Assembly (NCBI GenBank): GCA_964509195.1
Contig: CAZDWJ010000002.1
Span: forward strand, 8,214-72,213
Direction of reading: 5' to 3'
DNA length: 64,000 nt
Origin: an uncultured Leptospira sp.
GTDB lineage: Bacteria > Spirochaetota > UBA4802 > UB4802
Numbering within the stretch: the first letter of the stretch is position 1; the number at the start of each line of letters is the position of its first letter. The position numbers and the translations under genes were made by a program. Shown here in pieces: positions 13,963 through 50,947 of the stretch. The notes beneath the pieces were generated by a model. That model searched no databases. It saw only the letters and a list, made by a program, of their open reading frames with translations, and was not told the DNA's origin.

Positions 13963-14454
13963 ATGGATATCGAGACAACAACCTGCGTTTCATTAGAGAA
14001 TCTTACTACACTGGAAATTTACGCACAAAAACTTAATATGCCGCTTCGATCATTAATAGTTTATTTGTTGATGTTTGCTGCCAAAAATGAAAAGAGAGAG
14101 GCAATAGCATTTAAACGAATATCTTACAGAAAACGTAATAGTGAACAGCCATGGAAAAGATTACATATAGTGCTTTATCAGTCCGAATATGAATTTATCC
14201 TTGATGTAAAGAAGTTATGGAAGATGTCGCTGGCGCTCTGTATTGAGTTTTGCATTGAAAATGTTCTGTTTGAATTTATTGACTACTTTTTGGATTGTGA
14301 AAAAAGAAAAGATACCGATAACTATCTTAATTATTACCAGAATAGATCCTATACATTTGACTTTTATCAGGAAAAAGGCATACATTGCTGCAAATTTTAC
14401 TGGGGCCCACCACCACAATTACTCAATAACACATTAACATTGGAATTAGCGTAA
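13963..14454 (+). CDS. Hypothetical protein (163 aa)
   Basis: ORF with no motifs I can recognise. It is AT-rich and sits upstream of the APH/kinase fusion on the same strand. Confidence 0.35.
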   Translation: MDIETTTCVSLENLTTLEIYAQKLNMPLRSLIVYLLMFAAKNEKREAIAFKRISYRKRNSEQPWKRLHIVLYQSEYEFILDVKKLWKMSLALCIEFCIENVLFEFIDYFLDCEKRKDTDNYLNYYQNRSYTFDFYQEKGIHCCKFYWGPPPQLLNNTLTLELA

Positions 14455-23797: not shown

Positions 23798-23800
23798 GTT

Positions 23801-24358
23801 ATGGTCCATCGGTTAATTATTATTTTGTTACTATCTTTGATATTGATTTTTTTTAATTCATCACCAAATCTTGCGTGGTTCAATAGAGGGCTTGATAATA
23901 CTTTAATAGAAATGCAGAAACTTTTTACTCAGAGGGACTTGATGCAATTATATGACAATTATGTCCATACTGATATCAAAGAAGATATTGTTAAGTTGAT
24001 TAACGCTATGAAAACTGAAAAGATGGATGAGAATAAAATTGCACTGAGACTGAATTATAAAAATGTTGAACAATATCGAAATGCTACGCCCAGAGATATT
24101 ATCATACATTTTTTTGATTTGATAAAGCAACCAAGGTATACTCATCCTTCCAACATTAAGAATAGTGCATATCTCAGGCTTGCACTATCGGTATCACTTT
24201 TATTTGCATTTTTAGATAATGGGATGGAACTTGTTGATAGAGAAATCGACTGGAGGTGTGCTATATTAACGTATAAGGGGAATAATTTTACCATGAAAAT
24301 ATACTTTTATTATCAAAATGGAAAATGGTTCTTGACAGATGGCAGGCAGTGTCTGTAA
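23801..24358 (+). CDS. Hypothetical secreted protein (185 aa)
   Basis: N-terminal signal/TM LIIILLLSLILIFF. It starts 4 nt after the upstream stop. Confidence 0.4.
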   Translation: MVHRLIIILLLSLILIFFNSSPNLAWFNRGLDNTLIEMQKLFTQRDLMQLYDNYVHTDIKEDIVKLINAMKTEKMDENKIALRLNYKNVEQYRNATPRDIIIHFFDLIKQPRYTHPSNIKNSAYLRLALSVSLLFAFLDNGMELVDREIDWRCAILTYKGNNFTMKIYFYYQNGKWFLTDGRQCL

Positions 24359-32278: not shown

Positions 32279-33838
32279 TTACTTTGTTTCTACTGCCAAA
32301 GTCTGGCGCAATTCCCGTTTCAGTATTTTACCGGATGGATTTTTGGGTAATGCATTCATTATAAAAATTTTCTTTGGAGTTTTAAATCCCGCTAACCGTT
32401 GCTTGGCAAAAGCGATAATTTCTTCTTCTGTTGCCTGCATATCTTTTTTCAATACTATTGCTGCGCATACAAGTTCAATCCATTTAGGGTCAGGCAATCC
32501 AAAGACAGCAACCTCAGCAATAGCGGGATGCTGATATAATACTTCTTCAACTTCTCGAGAAGCTACATTTTCTCCACCTGTTTTTATCATGTCTTTTTTG
32601 CGGTCAACGACATACAGATAGTCATCTTCATCAAATTTACCTAAATCGCCACTGTGGAACCAGTCAAAAGCAAATGCTTCAGCAGTTTTTTCTGGATCAT
32701 CCAGATACCCTGTCATAACGTGACCAGATCTATGAACTATCTCACCAACTTCCCCAACCGGGACAAAATTACCATCATCATCCATCAATGCTGTTTCTAC
32801 ATTCAGTACAGGTTTGCCAGCTGAACCAGGTTTTGTAAGCTGGTCTTCAGGTTTTAATATAGTAGCTACCGGTCCCATTTCGGTCTGTCCATAATAATTC
32901 CATAGCCGCAACCCAGGGAATACTTCAGTTAAGCGTTTCAACACCTCAACCGGCATGATGCTGGCACCATAGGCAGCTTTTTTGAGTGAAGTAAGATTGT
33001 ACTTTTTAAATTCAGGATGGTTGATTATTCCAATCCATACAGTGGGTGGTGAAAACATATGAGTAATATTGTACTTTTCAATAAGCTGCATCATAGCAAC
33101 GGGATCTGCTTTGTGTAAGATAATATTTGTTGCACCAACATACAAAAATGGCATAAGAAAACAATGCAGCTGTGCACAGTGGAATAGAGGAAGAGCATGG
33201 AGGCTGATATCGTTAGGCTGATACTGGCCTTCAATGATACAACTAAAATACTGCGACATTAATGCTCTATGCGACAGCATCGCGCCTTTTGGCTTTGATT
33301 CAGTACCACTGGTGTAAGGAATCTGTGCAATATCCTCCGGTTCAACAGTTGCAATAATATCTTTGGTGGACATATCCTTCATCATTTCTATAAGGTTATC
33401 AAAACCTTCTGGTGTTTTTGTGCCTTCAAGAGGAATGAAAAGCCAATTTTCAACGGTTGTGCATTTGTGTATGGCTGGTGCTATTACATTATATAAATTG
33501 TCTTCTACGATCACCATCTTTGATTTAGAATGATTTATTATATATGCCATTTCATCTCCATTGAGCATATAATTAATAGGAACCTGAATAGCGCCTATTT
33601 TTGAAAGCCCCACAAAGCTTATTGGATAATAATGTGAGTTAAAGGCTATAATGGCAACACGATCGCCTTTATCAATTCCGTACTGCTGCATAAGATGAGC
33701 AAAACGGCAACATTCGTCTTCAAGTTGCCTGAAGGTCAAATTAGTGTCTCTGAATGCAATAGCAAGTTTTTCGCCAAACCGCAAAGCAGCGCGGCGTACC
33801 ATATCAGCAACTGTATCTCTGCAATAAAGGTTAGCCAT
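32279..33838 (-). CDS. AMP-binding acyl-CoA synthetase family protein
   Basis: Motifs YTSGTESKPKGAMLSH, YGQTEMGP, GWFHSGDLGKFDEDDYLYVVDRKKDMIKTGGENV. Confidence 0.8.
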   Translation of the reverse strand: MANLYCRDTVADMVRRAALRFGEKLAIAFRDTNLTFRQLEDECCRFAHLMQQYGIDKGDRVAIIAFNSHYYPISFVGLSKIGAIQVPINYMLNGDEMAYIINHSKSKMVIVEDNLYNVIAPAIHKCTTVENWLFIPLEGTKTPEGFDNLIEMMKDMSTKDIIATVEPEDIAQIPYTSGTESKPKGAMLSHRALMSQYFSCIIEGQYQPNDISLHALPLFHCAQLHCFLMPFLYVGATNIILHKADPVAMMQLIEKYNITHMFSPPTVWIGIINHPEFKKYNLTSLKKAAYGASIMPVEVLKRLTEVFPGLRLWNYYGQTEMGPVATILKPEDQLTKPGSAGKPVLNVETALMDDDGNFVPVGEVGEIVHRSGHVMTGYLDDPEKTAEAFAFDWFHSGDLGKFDEDDYLYVVDRKKDMIKTGGENVASREVEEVLYQHPAIAEVAVFGLPDPKWIELVCAAIVLKKDMQATEEEIIAFAKQRLAGFKTPKKIFIMNALPKNPSGKILKRELRQTLAVETK

Positions 33839-34238: not shown

Positions 34239-37200
34239 ATGGCAAAAAAGATTATGAAATCAATGGATGGTAACGAAGCTGCTGCGTACATATCGTATGC
34301 ATTTACTGAGGTTGCTGCCATCTATCCTATTACACCTTCTTCTCCTATGGCTGAATTCGTTGATGAATGGGCTGCACATGGGAAAAAGAATATTTTTGGG
34401 CAGGTTGTGCGTGTTGTAGAAATGCAATCAGAAGCTGGTGCTGCTGCTGCAGTTCATGGTTCATTACAGGCAGGTACGCTTACAACTACCTATACAGCAT
34501 CACAGGGATTGCTTTTAATGATTCCCAATATGTATAAAATATCTGGTGAATTGCTCCCTGCAGTATTCCATGTAAGTGCGCGCTCTATATCATCTCAGGC
34601 ATTATCAATATTTGGTGATCATCAGGATATAAATGCCTGTCGCCAAACTGGATTTGCCATGCTTGCAAGCGGTGGTGTTCAGGAGGTTATGGATTTGGCT
34701 GCTGTTGCACATCTATCGGCAATAAAATCTCGTATACCATTTTTACATTTCTTTGATGGGTTCAGAACATCCCACGAAATTCAAAAGATTGAAGTGCTGG
34801 ATTATGAAGATCTGGCACAGCTCATTGATTATTCAAAGTTAGAAGAGTTCAGAAACAATGCATTAAATCCTGAACATCCAGTTACTCGTGGTACTGCACA
34901 AAATCCTGATATTTATTTTCAGGCACGGGAAGTGAGTAATATATTTTATCAGGCTGTTCCTGATATTGTTGAAGATTACATGCAGCAATTAAGCAAGCTT
35001 ACAGGAAGAGTGTATCACCCATTTACCTATTATGGTGCACCTGACGCTGAGCATATCATAGTGGCTATGGGATCTGTTACCGAAACTATTGAAGAAACAA
35101 TAGATTATCTTATAAAACAGGGTGAAAAAGTTGGCCTTGTTACCTGTCATCTGTACAGGCCATTCTCGACAAAATATTTCTTCAACGTATTGCCAAAAAC
35201 TGTGAAGCGCATTGCAGTTCTGGATAGAACAAAAGAACCAGGTTCAATTGGGGAACCGCTGTATTTAGATGTACGTGCAGCATTTTATGGGACAGCGCAG
35301 CAGCCACTTATCGTTGGCGGCAGGTATGGATTGAGTTCTAAAGATACCACACCATCACAGATTATTGCTGTGTATAATAACTTAAAGCTCAGTGAGCCAA
35401 AGAACGGGTTTACAGTTGGTATAGTTGATGATGTGACATTCACATCATTGCCACTTCCTGAAGATACCAGTGTTGTGCCGGAAGGTACGTTTGAAGGTAA
35501 ATTTTTTGGTGTAGGTGCAGATGGGACTGTTGGGGCAAATAAAAACTCAATTAAAATCATTGGCGATAACACCGATTTATATGCGCAAGCTTACTTTGCA
35601 TACGATTCAAAGAAGTCAGGTGGTGTTACTGTATCGCATCTTCGCTTTGGTAAAAAACCAATTCGCTCAACCTATCTGGTAAATAACCCTGATTTTGTAG
35701 CCTGCCATGTCCCTGCATACCTGGATAAATACGATATTTTGAAAGGATTGAAAAAAGGCGGGACATTCCTGCTCAATTCATTGTGGGATGAGGAAGAAAC
35801 TAAAAAGAAGCTCCCGGATCATATCAAACGGTATTTAGCTGAAAACAACATAAAGTTTTATATTATCAATGCAACAGAAATATCTGAACGTATTGGTCTT
35901 CCTGGGAGAACTAATAGTATAATGCAGGCAGCGTTTTTTAAAGTAAGCAATGTTATTCCTTATGAAATCGCCGAAAGGGAAATGAAAGAAGCTATTGAAA
36001 AAACATATGGAAGAAAAGGTTCTGACGTTGTTGCAAAAAATATTGCTGCTATTGATGAAGGTGCAAATAATGTAAAAGAAGTAAAAGTTCCCGAGGAGTG
36101 GAAAAATATAAATCTTCCAGGAAAACCAAAATTTGAGGAATTACCTGAATTTGTTCGTGAGATAGTTGAGCCAATGAACAGGTTAGAGGGCGATAGTTTA
36201 CCGGTAAGTGCCTTTTTGCCCAGACCTGATGGAACATTCCCTCAAGGCACAACGCAGTATGAAAAGCGGGGTATTGCCGTAAATGTTCCTGAATGGCAGC
36301 CAGAAAATTGTATACAGTGTAACCAGTGTGCGTATGTGTGCCCACACGCAGTGATTCGTCCATTCCTGCTTAATGATGAAGAAATGAAAAAAGTGACTGC
36401 TGGTATTCCTGTACTTGAGGCAAAAGGCAAAGGCCTTGAAGGACTTAAGTTTAGAATACAGATTAGTCCGCTTGATTGTACTGGTTGCGGCAACTGTGCC
36501 GAGGAATGCCCAGCAAAAGAAAAAGCACTGGTTATGAAACCACTGGAAAGCCAGCTAGGCCAGCAGAAATACTGGGATTCTATTGTTAAGAATGTAACCT
36601 ATAAAGACAACTTAATGAACAAATACACAGTGAAGGGCAGCCAGTTCTGTCAGCCGTTATTTGAATTTTCTGGTGCATGCGCCGGATGTGGAGAAACTCC
36701 TTATATCAAGCTTATTACTCAGCTTTTTGGCGATAGGATGCTCATTGCTAACGCAACCGGTTGTTCATCAATCTATGGTGGTTCTGCACCAGCAACTCCA
36801 TATTGCATCAATGCACAGGGAAGGGGGCCAGCGTGGGCAAGCTCACTTTTTGAGGATGCCAGCGAATATGGTTATGGTATGTATTTGGGAGTAACTCAGC
36901 AGCGTAAGAAAATCGCACAACTTTTAGAACAGCTGGCTAAAACAACATCTAACACTCAGCTGAAAGATGCAGCGCTTGAATGGATTGCAGGCAAGGACAA
37001 TGCTGAAAAATCACGTGAAGCTACAAAGAAACTGTTGCCACTATTACAGGGCGATAGCTCTAAAGAAGCAGCCGAAGTGTTGAAATTGGCACAGTATCTT
37101 GAAAAGAAATCAATCTGGGTGTTTGGTGGTGATGGGTTTGCCTACGATATCGGGTTTGGTGGACTTGATCACGTTATCGCTTCCGGTGAAGATGTAAACA

Positions 37201-37760
37201 TTCTGGTTATGGACACGGAGGTATACTCTAATACTGGTGGACAGTCTTCAAAGGCAACACCAATAGCAGCCCAGGCTAAGTTTGCTGCAAGCGGAAAGCG
37301 GGTACGTAAAAAGGATCTAGGCCTTATGGCTATTACATACGGCTATGTGTATGTGGCTCAGGTTGCAATGGGAGCAAGCCAGATGCAGTATATGCGTGCT
37401 ATTACCGAAGCTGAAAGCTATCCTGGACCATCCTTGATTATTGCATATTCGCCATGTATCAATCACGGATTGCGTGAAGGTATGGGGAAAGCACAGGAAG
37501 AAGCAAAGAAAGCAGTAGAATGCGGTTACTGGACATTGTGGCGTTACAACCCATTGCTAGAAAAAGAAGGTAAAAATCCATTTATTTTGGATTCAAAAGA
37601 ACCACAATGGGAAAAATTTAACGATTTCCTTATGGGCGAAGTACGTTACTCAGCTTTAAAGAAGGAATTCCCAGAAGTTGCTAATGAGCTATATGCCGCA
37701 GCACTTGATAATGCTAAGTGGCGATATAACAATTATAAGAGATTAGCAACACAGTCATAA
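34239..37760 (+). CDS. nifJ: Pyruvate:ferredoxin (flavodoxin) oxidoreductase, single-polypeptide PFOR
   Basis: 1173 aa with all PFOR domains, two ferredoxin-type Cys clusters (CIQCNQCAYVCP, CTGCGNCAEECP) and the TPP-binding GGDG. RBS AAGGAGA. Confidence 0.95.
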   Translation: MAKKIMKSMDGNEAAAYISYAFTEVAAIYPITPSSPMAEFVDEWAAHGKKNIFGQVVRVVEMQSEAGAAAAVHGSLQAGTLTTTYTASQGLLLMIPNMYKISGELLPAVFHVSARSISSQALSIFGDHQDINACRQTGFAMLASGGVQEVMDLAAVAHLSAIKSRIPFLHFFDGFRTSHEIQKIEVLDYEDLAQLIDYSKLEEFRNNALNPEHPVTRGTAQNPDIYFQAREVSNIFYQAVPDIVEDYMQQLSKLTGRVYHPFTYYGAPDAEHIIVAMGSVTETIEETIDYLIKQGEKVGLVTCHLYRPFSTKYFFNVLPKTVKRIAVLDRTKEPGSIGEPLYLDVRAAFYGTAQQPLIVGGRYGLSSKDTTPSQIIAVYNNLKLSEPKNGFTVGIVDDVTFTSLPLPEDTSVVPEGTFEGKFFGVGADGTVGANKNSIKIIGDNTDLYAQAYFAYDSKKSGGVTVSHLRFGKKPIRSTYLVNNPDFVACHVPAYLDKYDILKGLKKGGTFLLNSLWDEEETKKKLPDHIKRYLAENNIKFYIINATEISERIGLPGRTNSIMQAAFFKVSNVIPYEIAEREMKEAIEKTYGRKGSDVVAKNIAAIDEGANNVKEVKVPEEWKNINLPGKPKFEELPEFVREIVEPMNRLEGDSLPVSAFLPRPDGTFPQGTTQYEKRGIAVNVPEWQPENCIQCNQCAYVCPHAVIRPFLLNDEEMKKVTAGIPVLEAKGKGLEGLKFRIQISPLDCTGCGNCAEECPAKEKALVMKPLESQLGQQKYWDSIVKNVTYKDNLMNKYTVKGSQFCQPLFEFSGACAGCGETPYIKLITQLFGDRMLIANATGCSSIYGGSAPATPYCINAQGRGPAWASSLFEDASEYGYGMYLGVTQQRKKIAQLLEQLAKTTSNTQLKDAALEWIAGKDNAEKSREATKKLLPLLQGDSSKEAAEVLKLAQYLEKKSIWVFGGDGFAYDIGFGGLDHVIASGEDVNILVMDTEVYSNTGGQSSKATPIAAQAKFAASGKRVRKKDLGLMAITYGYVYVAQVAMGASQMQYMRAITEAESYPGPSLIIAYSPCINHGLREGMGKAQEEAKKAVECGYWTLWRYNPLLEKEGKNPFILDSKEPQWEKFNDFLMGEVRYSALKKEFPEVANELYAAALDNAKWRYNNYKRLATQS

Positions 37761-37770
37761 CATATAGAAA

Positions 37771-37803
37771 AGGGGTTGCACAAAGGCAACCCCTTCTTTT
37801 TTT
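37771..37803. terminator. Bidirectional rho-independent terminator (GGGGTTGC-loop-GCAACCCC plus T/A tracts)
   Basis: An 8-bp perfect GC-rich stem with loop ACAAAG, followed by a T-run on the plus strand (terminating nifJ) and an A-run on the minus strand (terminating the small ORF). Confidence 0.6.
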
Positions 37804-37969
37804 ATGCTTGAGTGTTGATTATTTTACCTTTATTTTCTTCTTCCAGTGTTTTTGGCACTTCACTCAATCTCTGGCGTGATTCTTCAACCGTATTTCTCCC
37901 AATCTCTTTGGATTTCTGTAACACACCTTGAGTTTGGTTTGTTGTAATGTCATTAATCTTGTTTATCAT
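37802..37969 (-). CDS. Small hydrophilic protein (55 aa), not in the ORF track
   Basis: ATG at 37969 preceded by strong RBS AAGGGAGGG with 5-nt spacing. It encodes MINKINDITTNQTQGVLQKSKEIGRNTVEESRQRLSEVPKTLEEENKGKIINTQA, and its stop TAA lies in the terminator T-tract. Confidence 0.45.
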   Translation of the reverse strand: MINKINDITTNQTQGVLQKSKEIGRNTVEESRQRLSEVPKTLEEENKGKIINTQA

Positions 37970-37995
37970 AAACCCTCCCTTGTTTAGTATGCATT

Positions 37996-38802
37996 TTAAG
38001 TTTTCTTTTTTGGTAGTGGAATAAAGGCACTGGTAGTTTTAATATATTCAACATATTCAGGACGCTTTTCTTTCAATGAGTTTTCAAACAATGTAATCCC
38101 AGAAACTTTTAACAGCATATACGTTATCAAAAGTGGTGATAGTATGGTAAATATCCCATATGGCACAGGCAGTGCAATAATAAAAATACCCCACCACATC
38201 AGTGATTCACCAAAATAATTTGGGTGCCGCGAATAATACCATAATCCTTTATTCATTACTTTCCCTGCATTTGCTGGGTTATTAATAAACGTATATAACT
38301 GTATATCAGCCACAGTTTCAAAGATGAAGCCTGTAAGCCAAATTAAACTTCCTATATAGTCAGTGAATACAATTTCAGCAGGTCTGTCTGCAGCAATGCC
38401 AATTTGAGCAGATAAAGAAATAAGAATAAGCAGTAAACCCTGAAGCCAGAATACCTTAAAAAGACTTATGATCCAGAAATTACGGGGATTTTTATTTCGC
38501 ATTGCGGTGTATCGGTGGTCTTCACCCTTGCCACGCTTTCTGTAAAAAATATAGACTGACAACCGCAACCCCCACAGTAGAATAAGCACAACTATGACAG
38601 TTGCTCTTACAGTGTATCCTGGAAAAAAGATGTATGTGAGTAGCGACACAAGTATAAACCCCAATCCCCAGAACACATCAGCAATGCTTGCATCTTTGAC
38701 TATAAGGCTTATTATCCAGGCAAGGAAGAAAAATGCAAAGATTGCTGCAAGGTTAGTAAGGATTATGTGCGCAATAGTTTCTATCATAAGAGCTATCGCC
38801 AA
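37996..38802 (-). CDS. DUF1295 / ICMT-PEMT-steroid-5alpha-reductase-like integral membrane protein (lipid-modifying methyltransferase/reductase superfamily)
   Basis: About 7 TM helices, and a C-terminal signature YSRHPNYFGESLMWWGIFII typical of this superfamily. Confidence 0.6.
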   Translation of the reverse strand: MAIALMIETIAHIILTNLAAIFAFFFLAWIISLIVKDASIADVFWGLGFILVSLLTYIFFPGYTVRATVIVVLILLWGLRLSVYIFYRKRGKGEDHRYTAMRNKNPRNFWIISLFKVFWLQGLLLILISLSAQIGIAADRPAEIVFTDYIGSLIWLTGFIFETVADIQLYTFINNPANAGKVMNKGLWYYSRHPNYFGESLMWWGIFIIALPVPYGIFTILSPLLITYMLLKVSGITLFENSLKEKRPEYVEYIKTTSAFIPLPKKKT

Positions 38803-38848
38803 GAATATAATTGTTTAAAGTATATAAAGTGTGAGTATCAAAGTCAAA

Positions 38849-41320
38849 TTAATTATTGTACGCTGAAAGCTTTTGTGCGATAGCATCCCTGGTTTTTGCC
38901 GCAACATCATCAACTGTAAGATTATCAGGGTACACTGGCAAAAGAATATCGATTGTCACTGGCATTGGTTTGGGTAGTAGTTTTCCCCGTTTAAATGATT
39001 GATATGCACCATGTATTGCAATTGGCACCACAGGGCAATTGAGTTCTTTACTAAGGATGGCAAAAGTTTTTTTGAATGTACCAAGATCTCCGGTAATTGT
39101 ACGGGTACCTTCGGGAAAGATAATAATATTTCGTTTGTTTTTAATGATAGCTGCCATTTTTTGAATAGAATCTTTAAGGTTAGTATCAATATTAACAATT
39201 ATTGTGTTCATTAATTTTGATAGAGAATCACCCCGCGATACTTTTATAAATCCCAGTTCACGTGATAAAAAGTAGCTGTGCATTAACGTTTTATTGGGCA
39301 ATGATGCAATAAGTAACACAGAATCAAGAAAGCTCTGATGATTTGGAGCAAGGATAATGGGGCTATCAGGAATATTTTCTTTTCCGTTAAGTTTCAACTT
39401 GAAATATACTTTAGCAATTGGCTTAACAATATATTTTGCAAATAAAATCAATGAAAATCCATGTTTAAACGTGTATGTAGTGTTTTTGATAATTACATTT
39501 AACCAGTTTTGCGCCTGTTCTTCAAATTTCAATTTATGTTCAGTAATGAAATCGGACATTTCTACAACAGTAGAATGATTCAGGATATCAGCATTGCTGA
39601 TTGTTATGCCAAATGTTTCTTCAATGTAGGTCTGGAATGACAGTATTCCCAGTGAATCAAGCCCTAAGTCCAGTAAAAGGTTATGATGTGGTAAAACCTT
39701 CTTGCGTGTGTGTACAGTTAGGAATCGGCTAATAGATTTGTATTCAACTGTTTGAGGTTCTTTGATATCCTGTTGTGATTGTGACTTGTGCTGGTATTGA
39801 ACCAGCTGTTTTATTATATATCGTTGTAGCTTGCCAAGCCTTGTCTTTGGTAATTCATCTTTGGAGATAGTTATTTTATTAATGTGTTTATAGCTGGCAA
39901 CACTGGCATTGTAGCGGTTTATAACTTTACGTTTAACTGTTTCTATGATATTTACAATATTTTCTTTGGTTATTATACTGTAATCGGGATGTATGACAGC
40001 AGTGAGCATTCCTTGATCTTCAATAACACCAATCTCTTTTATAATAGGTGATATGCGAAGAATTTGTTTTTCTATCTCTTCAGGATTGATATTTTTTCCA
40101 CTGGGTAAAACAATCATATCATCTTTTCTACCAGTAACATAGAGATATCTATCTTCGTCAAAATAGCCTGCATCTTTAGTATGGAACCAGCCGTCAGTAA
40201 TTGCTTCATCAGTTGCTTTTTTATTTTTGTAGTAGCCTTTCATTACATTTGGGCCTTTTACAAGGATTTCCCCATCTACAATTTTTACTTGTGTTCCTTT
40301 CACCGGCAATCCAACAGAACCTAATTTTACTTTTGAAAATGGATTAAAAGCAACAAGAGGAGCTGTTTCGGTCAATCCGTATCCTTCAACTAAGTTAAAC
40401 CCCAGTACTTTTAAATCACTGGCAACTTTTGGGTCTAATTTTGCGCCACCAGTAAGGAATGCATGAATGTGTCCACCAAATGCATTGTGTATCTTTTTAA
40501 AAAGAATTTTTGAAAATGTGAGGTTATTTACTGCTTTTGCAAGTAAGAATAAAAAATATGCAATTGGATTTTTTTTGACTGCAGCCATTATATTTTTATG
40601 CAAAAGCTCATAGAGGCGGGGAATACCTAAAAACATAGTAACCTTGTATTTTTGGAGTGCTGCTAGGATTTTATCAAGCACCAGTTCTTTCACCATGACA
40701 ACTGATGCATTGAGATATAAAGGAGCAGTGACACAGCCCTGCAGCGGAAATATATGGTAAAATGGCAACAATGCAATCATTCGATCATTTTGGGTTAACA
40801 TTTGTAATTCTGCTATTGCTCGTATGCTGCATAGCAGGTTATCATAGGTAAGCATAACACCTTTAGGTTTTCCTGTGGTTCCTGATGTATACATAATGAT
40901 GGCAACGTCGTTGTAGTTGATTTCAGGAAATGTAACTGATACATCTGTTTTTATTTTGCATTGTTCCAGTATAATTATATGTGGTTTGTATTTTATTAGT
41001 TTTAATGCTTTTTTTACTGTAGGTAAGGTATTGTTTGAGCAGTAAATTACTTTGGGGGTGCAATTGTTGAGTATATAGGCAAGTTCTTTTTCCTTCAGGT
41101 TATAGTCACAGGGTACAGCTATTCCTTTCTTGGTCCATATACTGTAGAATGCATAAATCCACTCAGGGCTATTTTCGGCAAAAAGGAGGACCCTATCGCC
41201 TTTTTTTATTGTAAGACTTTTTGCAAAAGATTGAATAGCATGTATCAGTTCATTATATGAGATTTCTTTACCTTCTATGTAAATTGCTATCTTTTCTGAA
41301 GGTTTTGGAAACATGATCAT
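38849..41320 (-). CDS. Tri-domain fusion: acyl-AMP ligase (AMP-binding), acyl-carrier (PP-binding) domain, and PlsC-type lysophospholipid acyltransferase
   Basis: AMP-binding: YTSGTTGKPKGVMLTYDN, YGLTETAP, GWFHTKDAGYFDEDRYLYVTGRKDDMIV. Carrier: LGLDSLG. LPLAT: NHQSFLD (HX4D) and FPEGTRT. Confidence 0.75.
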   Translation of the reverse strand: MIMFPKPSEKIAIYIEGKEISYNELIHAIQSFAKSLTIKKGDRVLLFAENSPEWIYAFYSIWTKKGIAVPCDYNLKEKELAYILNNCTPKVIYCSNNTLPTVKKALKLIKYKPHIIILEQCKIKTDVSVTFPEINYNDVAIIMYTSGTTGKPKGVMLTYDNLLCSIRAIAELQMLTQNDRMIALLPFYHIFPLQGCVTAPLYLNASVVMVKELVLDKILAALQKYKVTMFLGIPRLYELLHKNIMAAVKKNPIAYFLFLLAKAVNNLTFSKILFKKIHNAFGGHIHAFLTGGAKLDPKVASDLKVLGFNLVEGYGLTETAPLVAFNPFSKVKLGSVGLPVKGTQVKIVDGEILVKGPNVMKGYYKNKKATDEAITDGWFHTKDAGYFDEDRYLYVTGRKDDMIVLPSGKNINPEEIEKQILRISPIIKEIGVIEDQGMLTAVIHPDYSIITKENIVNIIETVKRKVINRYNASVASYKHINKITISKDELPKTRLGKLQRYIIKQLVQYQHKSQSQQDIKEPQTVEYKSISRFLTVHTRKKVLPHHNLLLDLGLDSLGILSFQTYIEETFGITISNADILNHSTVVEMSDFITEHKLKFEEQAQNWLNVIIKNTTYTFKHGFSLILFAKYIVKPIAKVYFKLKLNGKENIPDSPIILAPNHQSFLDSVLLIASLPNKTLMHSYFLSRELGFIKVSRGDSLSKLMNTIIVNIDTNLKDSIQKMAAIIKNKRNIIIFPEGTRTITGDLGTFKKTFAILSKELNCPVVPIAIHGAYQSFKRGKLLPKPMPVTIDILLPVYPDNLTVDDVAAKTRDAIAQKLSAYNN

Positions 41321-41835
41321 TCTCCTGTTAGGATATTGCTATTTGATATGTTTACTTTATAACAAGCCATAAAATTCATGTAAGTATACTATAATTAAAA
41401 AATATGTGAGATTAAATCATGTCGAAGATAAACAAGAAAATAGTAACCATATATTTGCAATTCCATTAAAGATAATTATATATCTTGATTTTATGGGCAT
41501 GCGCAAATGCCTTTAATTAATCATATCATATAAGAAAATATCAATTATAATAATTATAAATTTAAAATCAATTGTCAATAATAATTCTAGATAGATAGTA
41601 AATAACAACGAATATACAATTTTTTGGCCTTAATAATTCAATATGCAGGTTCATTTTTGTTTATGCAGTTGCAGAAAATATAGAAGTAAAAAATACAAAA
41701 TACAATATAAATAAACTTGTCATGTATAATATATTATATATATAATGCAGAAATAATGATTACAAAAAATATTTTTGCTAAAAGAATAAAAAGTGTTATC
41801 TTATTGGCTATGTACATTTTTAGGAGGTAATACGT

Positions 41836-43495: not shown

Positions 43496-44608
43496 ATGGA
43501 ATATACTGTTGTTCAATATAATAAGCATAAACAATTAATTATCAAAGAATACAGCAGAAAAGAGTTTATTGCTGTGTGCTCTGATCTAATGTACCGACCA
43601 AAAAAGTTATTTGTTGGATTGGGTGATTTCCTTGAAATTGGTGATTATAATCAATTGCTGGATGCTATATTTTATGACGAAGAAAGCTCAATTATTGAGC
43701 ATCTACTTGATGAAGTAAACCGAAAGCTCTCAGAAAAGGGACAAATACCATTCTCATTTTTAAAATTAGCAGTGTATTATCCCGATTATCTATTAAAAGA
43801 TGTACCGGTGCAGTGTTCTTCCACTGTGGGCATGAAAACTCGTTTGTTTCCTGGTGCAGTGCACTTTATAAATTTTATAAAAGAATATGACCCATCAATT
43901 CTGACAGCAATCCCCTATGAACTGGCTATTGAAATTATTAGAAGAGTTGGACTTGATGATAATCATCTTGTGGCAACAGAATATAAAAAGATAACTGGCC
44001 AGAAAAATATAGAAGTTTATGCAGGGGATATTGAACAATTTATTTCGGGCGAAAGGAAAATTATTGAAATTGAAAAATACATGGCGCAAACCAATACTAA
44101 AGAAGAAGATGTTCTCTATGTAGGTAGAGGCGAATCGGGCGTTATAACATTTTCAAAAATTAATTCTATAGCGTTTAATCCATCTGATGCAATCATTCCA
44201 CTATCACACATTACTGTGTATGGCTCATCCCTGGAATCTCTGTTAGTATTATTCAATGACTCAAAAGAAATAAACAAATTTTTGTTATCGGATATTGGTG
44301 AACACATCCTGCCATCACTTGTAGTGTTATCTGATGTAAAAGAAAAGCCAAAAGAAATTATTGAATTAGAAAAAAAACACAGAAGACTACAGGCAAATAT
44401 TATCGGGCAGCGCATTGAACATGGCACTGAAAGTTATACAACGTTAAAGCGCGATATTGAATTATCATTGAGTGCATACCCCTTTAATTTTCAGAGCATA
44501 AAAGATATGGTGCGTTCACGTTTGGAAAAATTTCAGGTTAATCCCCAGGGGTTCATAGATGAAATATGTGCGATAGCTCAAAAGAGATATCAAAGCTGGG
44601 GAATGTAG
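43496..44608 (+). CDS. Hypothetical protein (370 aa)
   Basis: Long ORF with no motif I can assign. A weak HAD-like degenerate patch (VLYVGRGESGV) is not convincing. Confidence 0.4.
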   Translation: MEYTVVQYNKHKQLIIKEYSRKEFIAVCSDLMYRPKKLFVGLGDFLEIGDYNQLLDAIFYDEESSIIEHLLDEVNRKLSEKGQIPFSFLKLAVYYPDYLLKDVPVQCSSTVGMKTRLFPGAVHFINFIKEYDPSILTAIPYELAIEIIRRVGLDDNHLVATEYKKITGQKNIEVYAGDIEQFISGERKIIEIEKYMAQTNTKEEDVLYVGRGESGVITFSKINSIAFNPSDAIIPLSHITVYGSSLESLLVLFNDSKEINKFLLSDIGEHILPSLVVLSDVKEKPKEIIELEKKHRRLQANIIGQRIEHGTESYTTLKRDIELSLSAYPFNFQSIKDMVRSRLEKFQVNPQGFIDEICAIAQKRYQSWGM

Positions 44609-44646
44609 TTTGAAGAATAATTTTATGTTTCAAGGGAGGGATTATT

Positions 44647-45141
44647 GTGGTATGTATGAAACACGTATGTGTTGCAGTGTTAATTATTTTTGCTGTACTA
44701 ATTCCACAAACAAACCTTTTTGCTCAATCAATTGGATATCATCAAATACTGTTGGGTTCAAAGTATCACAGCATTAAAGAAATTTTGCAATATTATGATT
44801 ATAATTTTAAAGAAACAAAATTTGGTGCTATAAAAGTTGTAACCTATAACGACTCACAATCACAGGGGATGCTTGTATTCGATTATTGGGATAGATTGTA
44901 TACTGTTATTGTTACTATACCTATAACTGATGTACAATACGAACAATTATATCAGCATTTAAAAAGCAAATATGGAGAGTTTAAGCAAAATAAGGATATA
45001 TTAACCTGTACCCTTGGAATTTACTACATATCGCTATATCACAACAAAACAGCAAAAACTGCTACAGTTGAGTATGGCCACACCATACCTCTATTCTTTC
45101 CAAAAGAACCGATGGCCAAAAATCCTTTTTTACAATTTTGA
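44647..45141 (+). CDS. Hypothetical secreted protein (164 aa)
   Basis: Signal peptide VLIIFAVLIPQTNLFAQS. Its stop TGA overlaps the TTG start of the downstream permease (TTGA). Confidence 0.4.
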   Translation: MVCMKHVCVAVLIIFAVLIPQTNLFAQSIGYHQILLGSKYHSIKEILQYYDYNFKETKFGAIKVVTYNDSQSQGMLVFDYWDRLYTVIVTIPITDVQYEQLYQHLKSKYGEFKQNKDILTCTLGIYYISLYHNKTAKTATVEYGHTIPLFFPKEPMAKNPFLQF

Positions 45142-46385
45142 TCAATGTTAGGTCAACCATTGTGGGTAACTATCGCTTATATAGCTTTATTCTTCTTTTC
45201 CTCCTGTATTTAACTCAGGGGATTCCATTTGGATTTCAGGTTACTGCACTACCGGTTCTTTTCAGACAATCAGGCATATCATTAACTGTGATTGGATTCA
45301 GCAGCATGCTTGCATTACCGTGGATGCTGAAAATAGTGTGGGCACCACTTGTTGACAGGTTCTGGTCTCATGCATTAGGAAGAAGAAAATCATGGTTATT
45401 GCCCATGCAGGCAGTGATGTTTGTTGCTGCTTATAGTGCTACTCACATTAACATAACTATAAATCCTGCATTATTTGCCGCGACCATATTTATTATGAAC
45501 TTTTGTGCATCAATACAGGACATTGCTGTTGATGGACTGGCCATTGATATTTTAAGAGATAATGATTTAGGATATGGTAATGCTATTCAGGTAGTGGGAT
45601 ATAAAATTGGGATGTTAATAAGCGGTGGCTTTCTGGTTTGGTTAAGTTCATACATTGGGTGGGGAAATATTTTTTATGTTATCTGTGGAATTGTTGCAAT
45701 TCCTGTATTACTTCTAATTCCATATAAAGAAACAGGGGTGTCACAACACAAAGTTAATTATATCACTATCAAAGATATTATTGCCCATATTAAGCATGCT
45801 TTTACACAACATGGGATGACTATTATTTTTTTATTGATTGCTACATATAAAACAGGAGAAACATTCATTGACGGGATGTTTAAGCCATTCCTGGTTGATA
45901 TGGGTTTTTCTGCTTCACAGATAGGGTTATGGCAGGGAATGTACGGAATGATAGCTTCTATTGCTGGTTCAATAATGGGAGGTGTGCTTTCATCCCGGTA
46001 CGGAATTATGCGGGGATTATGGATTTCGTTACTTGTACGCCTGCTGCCGTTGTGTGGTGAATGGTATTGCACTCTGTCAGTACCCTCAAGTAGTTTAGTT
46101 ATTACTGTAACGATAGCTGAACATTTCTTTGGTGGCATGCTGACAACTGCTATGTTTGCGTTTATGATGTATACTGTTGATAAGATGATTGGAGCAACGC
46201 ATTATACTATGCTAGCAACAATAGAGGTTATAGGCAAATCTCCCGGCATGTGGTTCTCAGGGCTGCTAGCCGATACATGGGGATATTCATACCTGTTTGG
46301 ACTTGGATTCTTTATTTCTTTTATACCCATATTATTTTTTTTAATGTTAAAACAATCACTACACTCCTATGAACAGCAGCATTAA
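45138..46385 (+). CDS. ampG: AmpG-family MFS permease (muropeptide/acetyl-CoA transporter-like)
   Basis: N-terminal signature LLYLTQGIPFGFQV ... MLALPWMLKIVWAPLVDRF and about 12 TM helices. Predicted TTG start. Confidence 0.6.
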   Translation: MINVRSTIVGNYRLYSFILLFLLYLTQGIPFGFQVTALPVLFRQSGISLTVIGFSSMLALPWMLKIVWAPLVDRFWSHALGRRKSWLLPMQAVMFVAAYSATHINITINPALFAATIFIMNFCASIQDIAVDGLAIDILRDNDLGYGNAIQVVGYKIGMLISGGFLVWLSSYIGWGNIFYVICGIVAIPVLLLIPYKETGVSQHKVNYITIKDIIAHIKHAFTQHGMTIIFLLIATYKTGETFIDGMFKPFLVDMGFSASQIGLWQGMYGMIASIAGSIMGGVLSSRYGIMRGLWISLLVRLLPLCGEWYCTLSVPSSSLVITVTIAEHFFGGMLTTAMFAFMMYTVDKMIGATHYTMLATIEVIGKSPGMWFSGLLADTWGYSYLFGLGFFISFIPILFFLMLKQSLHSYEQQH

Positions 46386-50281: not shown

Positions 50282-50827
50282 CTACGTAAAAACGGTAAAG
50301 TTTTTTATAGTCTGCAGTAAAATCTGAGCGGCATTAAGTGCATCTTCTTTTGTAAGTCCGCAGTCGTTATACAAGGAATCGGCCATAAATTTTCGAATAG
50401 CCATATATACATCTTCAGTGGGGTAAAAAATGAATGCAAAATTTTCCCCACGTGTTTTCAAAATGGTGAATGATGTATATAACATTAAAGGTTCTTTAGG
50501 TATCATTATTTTTTCCTGTTTTTGACCGGTAAGTATTGTCAGATCATCAAAACGATATGGTATCGATTTGCCTGCTTCCCTGTGTACTGGCTCTTCATAT
50601 CTTCGGGCATACGTTGGTGGTTCTACTAATAAGTGTGTTCTGCTCCCATCGGTTTTGAATGTGAGCCCTTCTGCAGTTTGATAAATATCTTTAACATTTT
50701 TATATGCAGTTACTTCATAAATAGAATAGATTGAGTCAGAATCAAAAAAAGAACAAATGATAAACCCACCATTTGATGGTATTGAGTTACTCATATAGGC
50801 TTTAAAAAGCGCAGTGCCTTTTGCCAT
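50282..50827 (-). CDS. Hypothetical protein (about 181 aa)
   Basis: I prefer ATG 50827 (MAKGTALFKAY...) with RBS GAGAGG over the track GTG at 50887. No recognisable domain. Confidence 0.4.
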   Translation of the reverse strand: MAKGTALFKAYMSNSIPSNGGFIICSFFDSDSIYSIYEVTAYKNVKDIYQTAEGLTFKTDGSRTHLLVEPPTYARRYEEPVHREAGKSIPYRFDDLTILTGQKQEKIMIPKEPLMLYTSFTILKTRGENFAFIFYPTEDVYMAIRKFMADSLYNDCGLTKEDALNAAQILLQTIKNFTVFT

Positions 50828-50947
50828 GTTGTACCTCTCGTTATCAGTCAAGTTAATAAAGAATGGTATACTTAATATGGGAACCACTCATAATTATATA
50901 AGAGGTAAAAGTTTAATGCAAACATTTTTTTTAAGGCAATTGGGATT

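What the first reader, a model, noticed from the sequence alone, without database searches (positions are those of the whole stretch)
37802..41320. Candidate lipid acylation/remodelling operon: acyl-AMP ligase-ACP-PlsC tri-domain fusion, DUF1295 membrane enzyme, and an unannotated 55-aa protein
On the minus strand, an 823-aa protein carries three complete catalytic modules in one polypeptide:
- an AMP-binding acyl-activating domain;
- an acyl carrier domain (LGLDSLG);
- a lysophospholipid acyltransferase domain (HX4D NHQSFLD, FPEGTRT).
This is the reverse domain order of E. coli Aas, and the carrier domain is embedded rather than borrowed from ACP. It would allow a self-contained activate-load-transfer cycle.

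The next gene in the same orientation (46-nt gap) is a DUF1295 / ICMT-PEMT-5alpha-reductase-superfamily membrane protein. That superfamily contains lipid methyltransferases and reductases. A 55-aa ORF with a strong RBS follows, and then a terminator.

Together this looks like a dedicated pathway for making or repairing a modified membrane lipid, for example reacylation of lysolipids or synthesis of an N-acyl or methylated lipid. I cannot tie it to a characterised system from sequence alone.
Basis: partly seen in the sequence, partly recalled or inferred. Interest (0 to 1): 0.6.

Follow-up and report, generated by a model that had tools for sequence, protein, structure and literature searches.

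The report
Self-contained fatty-acid-to-lipid acylation enzyme gene
This spirochaete gene encodes one protein that should activate a fatty acid, carry it on its own built-in arm and attach it to a membrane lipid; it belongs to a widespread family nobody has tested, and in this lineage it sits next to a probable membrane reductase gene and a real 55-residue gene.

Summary
Three co-oriented minus-strand genes lie at the stated coordinates and end at one terminator.

- **Tri-domain protein.** It is 821 aa from the second ATG and reads AMP-binding, then PP-binding, then PlsC-type acyltransferase. Every catalytic residue is conserved in 85 of 85 relatives.
- **How rare it is.** The architecture is not rare. 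A stand-alone family of about 815 aa occurs in Spirochaetota, Bacteroidales, Ignavibacteriales, Aquificota, Fusobacterium, Methylococcus/Nitrosomonas, Elusimicrobia and Patescibacteria. Some members carry 2–3 tandem carrier domains. Sources name it only "AMP-binding protein".
- **Closest known.** These are Aas (domain order reversed, no built-in carrier) and the ACS-ACP-AGPAT core of ElbD, which also has a reductase domain that is absent here.
- **The 55-aa ORF.** It is a real gene (dN/dS 0.03–0.09), found only in the 85%-identical relatives.

Best reading: an Aas-like activate-load-transfer enzyme that reacylates lysolipids, coupled in this clade to a lipid double-bond reductase. The function is inferred, not shown.

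The parts
38849..41314 (-). Gene for the 821-aa tri-domain protein (adenylating domain, carrier domain, PlsC-type acyltransferase). The mechanical ORF runs to 41320.
   Evidence: ORF; Pfam. The AGGAGA RBS lies 7 nt before the second ATG. Relatives are 821 aa. dN/dS is 0.06 against the 85% relatives.
39818..41299 (-). Adenylate-forming (ANL/acyl-activating) domain, residues 8-501 in 823-aa numbering. P-loop YTSGTTGKPKG at 144-154; A10 lysine K497.
   Evidence: PF00501 E 1.3e-75 and PF23562. The best NCBIfam hit is the long-chain fatty-acid ligase subfamily, below its cutoff. T145/S146/G147/K153, D383, R398 and K497 are conserved in 85/85 relatives. The fold matches ANL enzymes.
39506..39742 (-). 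Embedded acyl carrier domain, residues 527-605. The phosphopantetheine serine S556 (motif LGLDSLG) has its codon at 39653-39655.
   Evidence: PF00550 E 4.7e-10. D555-S556-L557 are conserved in 85/85. Relatives carry 2 or 3 tandem PP-binding domains. The model aligns with the McyG A-PCP didomain.
39014..39397 (-). PlsC/Aas-type acyltransferase domain, residues 642-769. HX4D at H661/D666; FPEGxR at 735-740.
   Evidence: PF01553 E 8.7e-19. Scanned alone, it hits Aas-type acyl-ACP--phospholipid O-acyltransferase PRK08633 (2.7e-20), AGPAT TIGR00530 (1.9e-16) and PRK08043 (4e-14). PDB hit: Thermotoga PlsC 5KYM, 2e-12. H661, D666 and FPEG are conserved in 85/85.
37996..38787 (-). DUF1295 integral-membrane protein gene. 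It is 263 aa from ATG 38787; the mechanical ORF starts at TTG 38802. Probable NADPH-dependent lipid C=C reductase.
37802..37969 (-). Gene for a 55-aa hydrophilic protein of unknown function, found only in this lineage.
   Evidence: dN/dS 0.03-0.09 against L001/L003, with one in-frame 3-nt indel. No Pfam or NCBIfam hit. Found only in L001 and L003 among the 135 loci scanned.
37973..37979 (-). GGGAGGG ribosome-binding site of the 55-aa gene.
   Evidence: Sequence. Invariant in L001 and L003 while the surrounding intergenic DNA varies.
37768..37797 (.). Bidirectional intrinsic-terminator hairpin, shared with the convergent pyruvate:ferredoxin oxidoreductase gene (34239-37760, + strand).
   Evidence: The terminator scan finds it on both strands. 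The stem keeps its pairing through compensatory changes in L001 and L003. No terminator-like site on the coding (minus) strand lies between 41314 and 37802; the scan's only other site there is a plus-strand one at 39790-39806.
41544..41578 (-). Candidate sigma-70-type promoter(s) about 230 nt upstream of the tri-domain gene. This is a consensus match only.
   Evidence: TTGACA-17-AATTAT and TTGATT-16-TATAAT. The number of promoter-like sites in the region does not exceed the shuffled expectation (23 against 20.9), so this is weak.

Best explanation
The 821-aa protein belongs to a widespread, experimentally uncharacterised family of self-contained lipid-acylating enzymes.

Proposed mechanism (all inferred):
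1. The N-terminal ANL domain adenylates a free, probably long-chain, fatty acid.
2. The acyl group moves to the phosphopantetheine arm on S556 of the protein's own carrier domain.
3. The arm delivers it to the C-terminal PlsC/Aas-type acyltransferase. There H661 and D666 catalyse transfer to the free hydroxyl of a lysolipid, most likely a lysophospholipid.

Functionally this is an Aas-like route for salvaging fatty acids and reacylating lysophospholipids that needs neither CoA nor the cell's free ACP.

In this spirochaete sub-clade the gene is probably co-transcribed with two others:
- a DUF1295 membrane enzyme, which most likely uses NADPH to reduce a carbon-carbon double bond in a membrane lipid or acyl chain;
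- a lineage-specific 55-aa protein of unknown role.

Shown here: the domain architecture, the conserved catalytic residues, the family's distribution, the neighbourhood statistics, the fold of DUF1295, and purifying selection on all three genes. Inferred: the substrates, the acceptor, the reductase chemistry and co-transcription.
For: - Domain hits and motifs.
- Catalytic residues of all three modules are conserved in 85/85 full-length relatives, including the 27%-identical Nitrosomonas branch.
- Relatives with 2-3 tandem carrier domains keep the A, ACP(n), AT order, which argues that the carrier is the real acyl acceptor.
- The acyltransferase domain is closest to the Aas-type acyl-ACP--phospholipid O-acyltransferase and AGPAT models and to PlsC structure 5KYM.
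- The adenylation domain is closest to the long-chain fatty-acid ligase models.
- The gene has no conserved partner across the 123 family loci, as expected for a general-purpose enzyme.
- Members occur in Patescibacteria. These organisms generally lack fatty-acid synthesis (my own knowledge, not tested here), which fits a scavenging role.
- Pairing with DUF1295: same strand, 46-61 nt gap, no minus-strand terminator-like site until after the 55-aa gene. The pair is retained in L089 (52% identity, 4-nt overlap) and L088 (45% identity, 29-nt gap) while every other flanking gene differs.
Against: - No member of the family has been assayed, so the acceptor lipid is unknown.
- All NCBIfam hits fall far below the curated cutoffs.
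- The arginine position of acyltransferase motif II, which I recall contacts the glycerol-phosphate in PlsC-type enzymes (not tested here), is variable in this family (K in 33, R in 12, other in the rest; T in the window protein). The acceptor may therefore not be lysophosphatidic acid.
- No LplT-type lysophospholipid flippase gene is nearby. The neighbouring MFS genes are of AmpG, drug-efflux or GPH type.
- DUF1295 is absent from the neighbourhood in 119 of 123 family loci. Any coupling is clade-specific and could be a retained historical accident.
- Co-transcription was not measured. A promoter-like hexamer pair lies in the gap between the tri-domain and DUF1295 genes (38819-38847).
Confidence: 0.55

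Rival explanations
1. ElbD-like ether-lipid synthesis. The ACS-ACP-AT protein is the core of a myxobacterial-type ether-lipid enzyme. In this clade the missing FAR-type reductase domain is functionally replaced by the adjacent membrane reductase DUF1295, and the pair makes alkyl or alkenyl glycerol ether lipids.
For: According to reviews of the original work, ElbD is a FAR-like reductase followed by ACS, ACP and an AGPAT-like acyltransferase. ElbD-like homologues lacking the FAR1 domain are reported in anaerobes, pathogens and extremophiles of other phyla (PMC9131029). Split forms (reductase gene | A-ACP-AT gene) exist in Poribacteria and Acidobacteria (bioRxiv 10.64898/2026.06.23.733905). The family includes Aquificota such as Persephonella and Sulfurihydrogenibium, an order I recall as containing glycerol ether lipids (not tested here). 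A putative reductase gene is the conserved neighbour in this sub-clade.
Against: There is no reductase domain in the protein. None appears in any of the 120 or 150 best relatives listed in the two searches that could have reached one. No elbB, elbC or elbE-type neighbours (HAD hydrolase, NAD-dependent epimerase) are present. The nearest structural relatives of DUF1295 reduce C=C bonds rather than thioesters. 119 of the 123 family loci have no adjacent DUF1295, and in the loci inspected more closely no reductase gene was seen among the neighbours. Even ElbD's acyltransferase and reductase activities could not be shown in vitro.
Confidence: 0.12
2. No functional link. The tri-domain enzyme is a stand-alone housekeeping enzyme, and DUF1295 and the 55-aa gene merely happen to lie downstream. 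Their adjacency in one sub-clade is inherited gene order, not coupling.
For: DUF1295 is adjacent in only 4 of the 91 loci with readable downstream DNA, all in one sub-clade of the tree. The closest DUF1295 relatives outside that clade lie in quite different contexts (CMAS clusters). Within the clade, L091 lacks it. The DUF1295 start has no clear RBS, and a promoter-like site lies in the gap.
Against: The adjacency survived divergence to 45-52% protein identity while all other flanking genes were replaced. In L089 the two genes overlap by 4 nt, which suggests translational coupling. In L091 the abutting gene is DUF2177, a family that also neighbours DUF1295 in L214. That hints at a shared functional network.
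Confidence: 0.22
3. The acyltransferase acylates a non-phospholipid acceptor, for example a lyso-aminolipid (ornithine or glycine lipid) or another hydroxylated membrane or envelope molecule. The enzyme would then build a specialised lipid rather than recycle lysophospholipids.
For: There are weak hits to the lyso-glycine-lipid O-acyltransferase GlsA (1.2e-6), OlsF (1.9e-4) and OlsA (7.8e-3). The motif II arginine position is variable in this family. The family is abundant in Bacteroidales, a group I recall as making glycine lipids (not tested here).
Against: The Aas-type and AGPAT models score far better (2.7e-20 and 1.9e-16). No N-acyltransferase (GlsB or OlsB-like) gene was identified among the neighbours examined. 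The taxonomic spread is much wider than that of known aminolipid producers.
Confidence: 0.08
4. DUF1295 is a SAM-dependent lipid methyltransferase (PEMT/ICMT-like) rather than a reductase, so the pair makes a methylated lipid.
Against: The reductases score higher and align over more of the protein: 202-220 residues against about 165. Steroid_dh is the best secondary Pfam hit. The characterised DUF1295-like protein UsgR is an ene-reductase. In L213 and L214 a separate CMAS-type methyltransferase already sits beside DUF1295, and a reductase would complement that better than a second methylase.
Confidence: 0.15

Closest known systems
Aas, the bifunctional 2-acylglycerophosphoethanolamine acyltransferase / acyl-ACP synthetase of E. 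coli and relatives (NCBIfam PRK08043, PRK08633, PRK06814)
   Same: It combines an adenylate-forming fatty-acid-activating domain with a PlsC-type HX4D acyltransferase in one polypeptide. The window's acyltransferase domain scores best against these models, and its AMP-binding half also hits them. The expected chemistry is the same: fatty acid to acyl-thioester to lysophospholipid.
   Different: The domain order is reversed (acyltransferase C-terminal here). A carrier domain is built in, whereas Aas uses free ACP (my own knowledge). Scores are far below the curated cutoffs (217 against 1221 bits; 51.7 against 886). No LplT-type flippase is fused or adjacent. It is a functional analogue, not a member.
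ElbD of Myxococcus xanthus, a multifunctional ether-lipid biosynthesis enzyme (Lorenzen et al. 2014, as reviewed in PMC9131029)
   Same: It has the same ACS, ACP, AGPAT-like module order. The review notes that ElbD-like homologues without the FAR1 domain occur in anaerobes, pathogens and extremophiles of other phyla. That description fits this family's hosts.
   Different: ElbD has an extra N-terminal FAR-like reductase domain and lies in the elbA-E operon with HAD and NAD-epimerase genes. Neither is present here. No reductase-bearing relative appeared among the best hits. Sequence orthology was not tested.
PlsC / AGPAT lysophosphatidic acid acyltransferases (PF01553; Thermotoga maritima PlsC, PDB 5KYM)
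   Same: HX4D and FPEGxR motifs. 5KYM is the only solved structure found with the acyltransferase domain as a sequence query (E 2e-12).
   Different: PlsC is a single-domain enzyme that takes acyl-ACP or acyl-CoA from the cellular pool. Here the donor is generated and carried in cis. The motif II arginine position is variable in this family.
Steroid 5-alpha-reductase / delta14-sterol reductase membrane reductases (PbSRD5A 7C83, MaSR1 4QUV), and the fungal ene-reductase UsgR
   Different: Sequence identity is only 15-17%. No DUF1295 protein has a known substrate. The related ICMT and PEMT methyltransferases share the cofactor-binding core.

Membership tests
Aas (acyl-ACP synthetase / 2-acyl-GPE acyltransferase; NCBIfam PRK08043, PRK08633, PRK06814) | Acyltransferase domain lies N-terminal to the AMP-binding domain | tested here: not met
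   In the window protein the acyltransferase is at 642-769 and AMP-binding at 8-364. In the models the acyltransferase precedes AMP-binding (profile positions).
Aas (acyl-ACP synthetase / 2-acyl-GPE acyltransferase; NCBIfam PRK08043, PRK08633, PRK06814) | Whole-protein score reaches the curated NCBIfam cutoff | tested here: not met
   PRK08633 217 bits against a cutoff of 1221; PRK06814 148 against 1349. PRK08043 51.7 against 886 for the acyltransferase domain alone.
Aas (acyl-ACP synthetase / 2-acyl-GPE acyltransferase; NCBIfam PRK08043, PRK08633, PRK06814) | Uses free cellular ACP; no embedded carrier domain | tested here: not met
   A PP-binding domain with an invariant DSL serine is embedded between the two catalytic domains.
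Aas (acyl-ACP synthetase / 2-acyl-GPE acyltransferase; NCBIfam PRK08043, PRK08633, PRK06814) | ATP-dependent acylation of lysophospholipid with free fatty acid | not testable with these tools
   Needs an enzyme assay or genetic complementation.
ElbD-type ether-lipid enzyme | N-terminal FAR-like (NAD-binding) reductase domain | tested here: not met
   No such Pfam domain is present, and AMP-binding starts at residue 8. The 870-1066-aa relatives that were scanned have extra carrier domains or longer linkers, not a reductase.
ElbD-type ether-lipid enzyme | ACS, ACP, AGPAT-like module order | tested here: met
   The ElbD architecture is taken from PMC9131029.
ElbD-type ether-lipid enzyme | elb operon context (HAD-like ElbB, ElbC, NAD-dependent epimerase ElbE/ElbA) | tested here: not met
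   Neighbours in the window and in L001/L003 are DUF1295, the 55-aa gene, PFOR, an acetyl-CoA hydrolase and unknown proteins. No recurrent neighbour family emerged in the 123-locus census.
ElbD-type ether-lipid enzyme | Sequence orthology to M. xanthus ElbD (Q1DC43) | not tested
   The ElbD sequence could not be obtained.
PlsC/AGPAT acyltransferase superfamily (PF01553) | HX4D catalytic dyad and FPEGxR motif | tested here: met
   H661, D666 and F735-G738 are conserved in 85/85, and R740 in 84/85. PF01553 scores 68 bits against a cutoff of 23.
PlsC/AGPAT acyltransferase superfamily (PF01553) | Motif II arginine (glycerol-phosphate binding) | tested here: inconclusive
   The aligned position is T in the window protein and K (33), R (12) or other residues in relatives.
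ANL adenylate-forming enzymes (PF00501) | P-loop (T/S)SGTTGxPKG, the hinge aspartate/arginine and the A10 catalytic lysine | tested here: met
   All are conserved in 85/85. PF00501 scores 255 bits. The fold matches MatB, MenE and luciferase.
Acyl/peptidyl carrier proteins (PF00550) | Four-helix carrier fold with a (D)S(L) phosphopantetheinylation serine | tested here: met
   PF00550 scores 40 bits against a cutoff of 20.8. DSL is conserved in 85/85. Helices are modelled at 525-538, 556-570, 576-581 and 585-595.
DUF1295 (PF06966) | Full-length match above the gathering score | tested here: met
   244 bits against a cutoff of 20.4, covering profile positions 1-235 of 235. Identity is 50-57% to members from other phyla.
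Steroid-5-alpha-reductase-type NADPH-dependent membrane reductases | Whole-protein fold similarity | tested here: met
   [not shown]
Steroid-5-alpha-reductase-type NADPH-dependent membrane reductases | NADPH-dependent C=C reduction | not testable with these tools
   Needs a biochemical assay. The PF02544 hit (30.5 bits, cutoff 22.6) covers only the C-terminal part of the protein.

The most novel reading that the evidence does not exclude
The pairing of the tri-domain gene with DUF1295 in this spirochaete clade encodes a previously undescribed membrane-lipid tailoring route. A CoA-independent, self-loading acyl-transfer enzyme installs a scavenged or released fatty acid into a lysolipid. The DUF1295 enzyme reduces a double bond in that chain or lipid, possibly on the carrier-tethered intermediate, and the 55-aa protein acts as an accessory. 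Demonstrating this would give the first biochemical function both to the widespread A-ACP-AT family and to DUF1295.
Probability: 0.15. Interest if true: 0.7.

Novelty: new variant of a known kind. Interest (0 to 1): 0.4.

Why it matters
If the inference holds, many bacteria recycle or scavenge fatty acids into membrane lipids with a single enzyme that carries its own acyl carrier. The hosts include gut Bacteroidales, Fusobacterium, spirochaetes, Aquificota, methanotrophs, nitrifiers and lipid-dependent Patescibacteria.

Such a route would bypass acyl-CoA, free ACP and the known systems for using external fatty acids (FadD, the acyl-ACP synthetases Aas/AasS, and the fatty-acid kinase Fak). That bears on how bacteria tolerate inhibitors of fatty-acid synthesis, on how symbionts depend on host lipids, and on how the "ElbD-like" genes used as ether-lipid markers in metagenomes should be read.

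The clade-specific link to DUF1295, together with DUF1295's position in CMAS-type gene clusters elsewhere, also gives a concrete and testable lead for a conserved domain of unknown function.

Tried and rejected
- **Genome-collection scan with the family alignment.** Only L005-L008 and L010 were useful. A custom degenerate DNA pattern for FPEGxRxxxGxxxxFKKxFxIxS on metagenome contigs replaced it and worked.
- **Reaching M. xanthus ElbD for a direct comparison.** The original paper is not held. A search seeded with the distant Nitrosomonas member and an exhaustive search with the ACP-AT module returned no protein with a reductase domain. The apparent N-terminal extension in L201 is just an open non-coding frame. 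ElbD orthology stays untested.
- **An LplT-type flippase partner, as in the E. coli lplT-aas operon.** Rejected. The nearby MFS genes are AmpG-like (window 45138-46385), drug-efflux-like (L089) or GPH-like (L214).
- **Recurrent operon partners across the family.** None was found. The largest neighbour cluster other than DUF1295 has 5 members, all on the opposite strand; one member inspected looks like a permease. Same-strand neighbours include a histidine kinase, UvrA, a GGDEF protein, guanylate kinase and YajC.
- **Other lipid genes in the 64-kb window.** No FASII, Pls, CMAS or DUF2177 gene was found among the 33 annotated ORFs, which cover 10309-62980. The eight ORFs of at least 150 aa before 10309 were not scanned. 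Lipid-related finds were Lgt and two further AMP-binding ligases.
- **Rfam and tRNA scans of the window.** Nothing found.
- **AFDB fold libraries.** Unavailable. The PDB fold search with the tri-domain model returned only ANL and A-PCP structures.
- **Literature searches for the fused architecture.** Nothing specific turned up.
- **The promoter scan.** It carries no information here: 23 sites found against 20.9 expected.

Full report
**1. The observation**

Pfam confirms the large protein as AMP-binding (residues 8-364, E 1.3e-75, plus the C-terminal subdomain at 400-501), PP-binding (544-592, E 4.7e-10) and Acyltransferase PF01553 (642-769, E 8.7e-19). The next gene is DUF1295 (E 1.6e-72), with weaker Steroid_dh, PEMT and ICMT hits. 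The 55-aa ORF matches no family.

Two details need correcting. The AGGAGA ribosome-binding site lies 7 nt before the second ATG, so the large protein is 821 aa (38849-41314), the same length as its database relatives. DUF1295 most likely starts at ATG 38787, giving 263 aa like its 99%-identical relative P0121.

The only terminator-like site on the coding strand downstream of the tri-domain gene's start is the hairpin at 37768-37797, after the 55-aa gene. It reads as a terminator on both strands and is shared with the convergent pyruvate:ferredoxin oxidoreductase gene. Gaps of 46-61 nt and 26 nt separate the three genes.

The reversed order relative to Aas is real. The acyltransferase domain aligns to the N-terminal part of the E. 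coli-type Aas model PRK08043 and upstream of the AMP-binding part in PRK08633.

**2. Source and surroundings**

The closest relatives of the tri-domain protein (85-100% identity) come from Spirochaetota metagenome-assembled genomes. The window is ordinary chromosome. It encodes Lgt, a penicillin-binding protein, signal peptidase, photolyase, ArgRS, PFOR, an acetyl-CoA hydrolase/transferase and two further AMP-binding ligases. No RNA genes were detected.

**3. The tri-domain protein belongs to a large family**

A search of 5.8 billion proteins returned 120 listed hits, nearly all full-length and 809-857 aa. All carry AMP-binding plus acyltransferase domains, and most also have a precomputed PP-binding hit. 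Beyond the six closest relatives, identity is 42-52%. The named hits come from Spirochaetota, Ignavibacteriales, Bacteroidota and Aquificota (Persephonella, Sulfurihydrogenibium, Venenivibrio).

Further loci come from Bacteroidales and a Fusobacterium MAG. A 27%-identical branch occurs in Nitrosomonas, Methylococcus, Methylocaldum, Elusimicrobia, Patescibacteria and TA06.

An exhaustive search with only the ACP-acyltransferase half found 126 representatives (50% clusters) at E ≤ 1e-30. Almost all are 800-850 aa with the module at the C-terminus. The longer ones (870-1066 aa) keep the same domain order. Two of them carry two or three tandem carrier domains, and none has a reductase. So the order AMP-binding, carrier, acyltransferase is common. 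Where a source names these proteins, the name is generic: "AMP-binding protein", "long-chain acyl-CoA synthetase" or, once, "acyltransferase".

**4. All three modules look active**

In 85 full-length relatives, including the distant branch, these residues are conserved in every sequence:
- the P-loop residues T145, S146, G147 and K153;
- D383, R398 and the A10 lysine K497;
- the carrier motif D555-S556-L557;
- the acyltransferase residues H661 and D666;
- F735-P736-E737-G738.

The AlphaFold model folds all three domains (pLDDT 83), with low-confidence segments at 512-516 and 689-701. No solved structure covers more than the adenylation domain plus carrier.

Scanned alone, the acyltransferase domain matches the Aas-type acyl-ACP--phospholipid O-acyltransferase models best (2.7e-20), then AGPAT (1.9e-16). 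GlsA, OlsF and OlsA score much more weakly. Its only solved sequence relative is Thermotoga PlsC. The motif II arginine position is variable in the family, so the acceptor may not be lysophosphatidic acid.

**5. Is the three-gene unit conserved?**

In the 85%-identical relatives the whole neighbourhood is syntenic, which says little about coupling. I therefore sampled distant members by exact-protein look-ups and by a custom DNA-pattern scan of metagenome contigs. This gave 123 family loci, 91 of them with at least 900 nt downstream.

DUF1295 is adjacent in only four loci:
- L001 and L003, the close relatives;
- L089, at 52% identity, with a 4-nt overlap;
- L088, at 45% identity, with a 29-nt gap.

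In a neighbour-joining tree these fall in one sub-clade. The flanks of L088 and L089 share nothing else with the window. In L091, a member of that sub-clade, the gene that abuts the start of the tri-domain gene is instead DUF2177.

No other neighbour family recurs in more than five loci. Same-strand neighbours elsewhere are housekeeping genes. The tri-domain gene is therefore essentially a stand-alone gene. The pairing with DUF1295 looks like a single ancestral event, kept through deep divergence within one clade. That is moderate evidence for coupling in this clade, and evidence against a family-wide pathway.

**6. The 55-aa gene**

Against L001 and L003 its dN/dS is 0.03-0.09. This equals the values for the tri-domain gene (0.06) and the DUF1295 gene (0.07). 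The RBS is invariant, the only indel is an in-frame 3-nt one, and the terminator stem keeps its pairing through compensatory changes. It is a real gene.

The protein is hydrophilic, has no cysteine and has no hydrophobic stretch long enough to span a membrane (sequence). It is absent from L088, L089 and all other loci. Its role is unknown, and nothing but position ties it to lipid chemistry.

**7. DUF1295**

The family is highly conserved: about 264 aa, with 50-57% identity to members from Desulfobacteraceae, Acidobacteriota and "Deltaproteobacteria". The model is confident (pLDDT 92).

In two unrelated genomes DUF1295 lies among acyl-chain-modifying genes:
- L213: a CMAS-type methyltransferase overlapping DUF1295 by 4 nt, a second CMAS gene, DUF1365 and an amine oxidase;
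- L214: DUF2177, a lipocalin and a CMAS gene.

I recall these families from the bacterial furan fatty-acid pathway, whose R. sphaeroides operon is described in PMC7380195. I did not verify the Pfam assignments of those proteins. In Chlamydomonas, DUF1295 and DUF2177 genes are both induced by singlet oxygen (PMC4067076).

A reductase acting on a lipid double bond is therefore the best reading. I recall that in yeast sterol synthesis a methyltransferase (ERG6) is followed by a reductase (ERG4) of a related membrane-reductase family. A CMAS-type methylase followed by DUF1295 would be analogous. That is an untested inference, and methyltransferase activity is not excluded.

**8. Mechanism**

Most likely (confidence about 0.55):
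1. The ANL domain adenylates a free long-chain fatty acid.
2. The acyl group moves to the phosphopantetheine arm on S556.
3. The acyltransferase domain transfers it to a lysolipid hydroxyl.

This is an Aas-like salvage and repair cycle that needs neither CoA nor free ACP. The family's presence in Patescibacteria fits scavenging, because these organisms generally lack fatty-acid synthesis (my own knowledge, not tested here). In this spirochaete clade the enzyme appears coupled to a membrane reductase that tailors the lipid. Only the sequence-level facts are shown. The substrates, the acceptor, the reductase chemistry and co-transcription are all inferred.

**9. Comparison with known systems**

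The protein works like Aas but fails three membership tests: domain order, reliance on free ACP, and the curated score cutoffs. No LplT partner is nearby.

It shares module order with the ElbD core. A review reports "ElbD-like homologues" lacking the FAR1 domain in anaerobes, pathogens and extremophiles (PMC9131029), which probably refers to this family. Split forms of ElbD are also described. However, the reductase domain and the elb operon context are both absent here, and I could not test orthology.

The rival in which DUF1295 replaces the missing reductase to make ether lipids is attractive but weak. The nearest structural relatives of DUF1295 reduce C=C bonds rather than thioesters, and 119 of the 123 family loci have no adjacent DUF1295.

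**10. Verdict**

This is a new variant of a known kind: an Aas/ElbD-type multidomain lipid-acylating enzyme. It is common in sequence databases and has no experimentally established function. The clade-specific reductase partner and the small gene are modest but testable leads. Interest is 0.4.

Noticed in passing
L213:6001-12795 and L214:6001-12792: Homologues of the window's DUF1295 protein (53-57% identity) from unrelated phyla sit among CMAS-type fatty-acid methyltransferases (4-nt overlap in L213), DUF1365, an amine oxidase, DUF2177 and a lipocalin. This suggests DUF1295 reduces a methylene or double-bond intermediate of acyl-chain modification. I recall the yeast ERG6 methylase followed by the ERG4 reductase as an analogy.
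   Followed up: partly
L091:5585-6001: In the one member of the DUF1295-linked sub-clade that lacks DUF1295, a DUF2177 membrane-protein gene abuts the start of the tri-domain gene. DUF2177 also neighbours DUF1295 in L214. Both families are induced by singlet oxygen in Chlamydomonas (PMC4067076).
   Followed up: partly
L088:9499-12843 and L090:10661-14457: Glycyl-radical enzymes lie just downstream of the tri-domain locus in two relatives. In L088 it is a 1114-aa fusion of a radical-SAM activase with a PFL-like domain. In L090 a PFL-like enzyme is followed by a separate activase, after a TetR gene. The link, if any, is unexplained.
   Followed up: no
P0486 and P0489 (family relatives, not in the window): Two family members carry two and three tandem PP-binding domains between the adenylation and acyltransferase domains.
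   Followed up: partly
window 43496-46385 (+): A 370-aa and a 164-aa protein with no Pfam or NCBIfam hit are followed by an AmpG-like MFS transporter. The trio is conserved in L001 and L003.
   Followed up: partly
window 21018-22727 (+), 32279-33838 (-), 38849-41314 (-): Three AMP-binding acyl-activating enzyme genes lie within 64 kb, which suggests heavy reliance on carboxylic or fatty acid activation in this organism.
   Followed up: no
window 37768-37797: A bidirectional terminator hairpin lies between the 55-aa gene and the convergent PFOR gene. Its stem keeps pairing through compensatory substitutions in the 85% relatives.
   Followed up: yes
window 52646-54910 (+), 22919-24358 (+), 50282-50887 (-), 13963-14454 (+): Several sizeable ORFs, including one of 754 aa, have no Pfam match.
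   Followed up: no
window 10309-11685 (+): A DNA photolyase gene is present in a genome that also carries PFOR, an enzyme I associate with anaerobic metabolism. This hints that the organism sees light.
   Followed up: no
[not shown]
   Followed up: no
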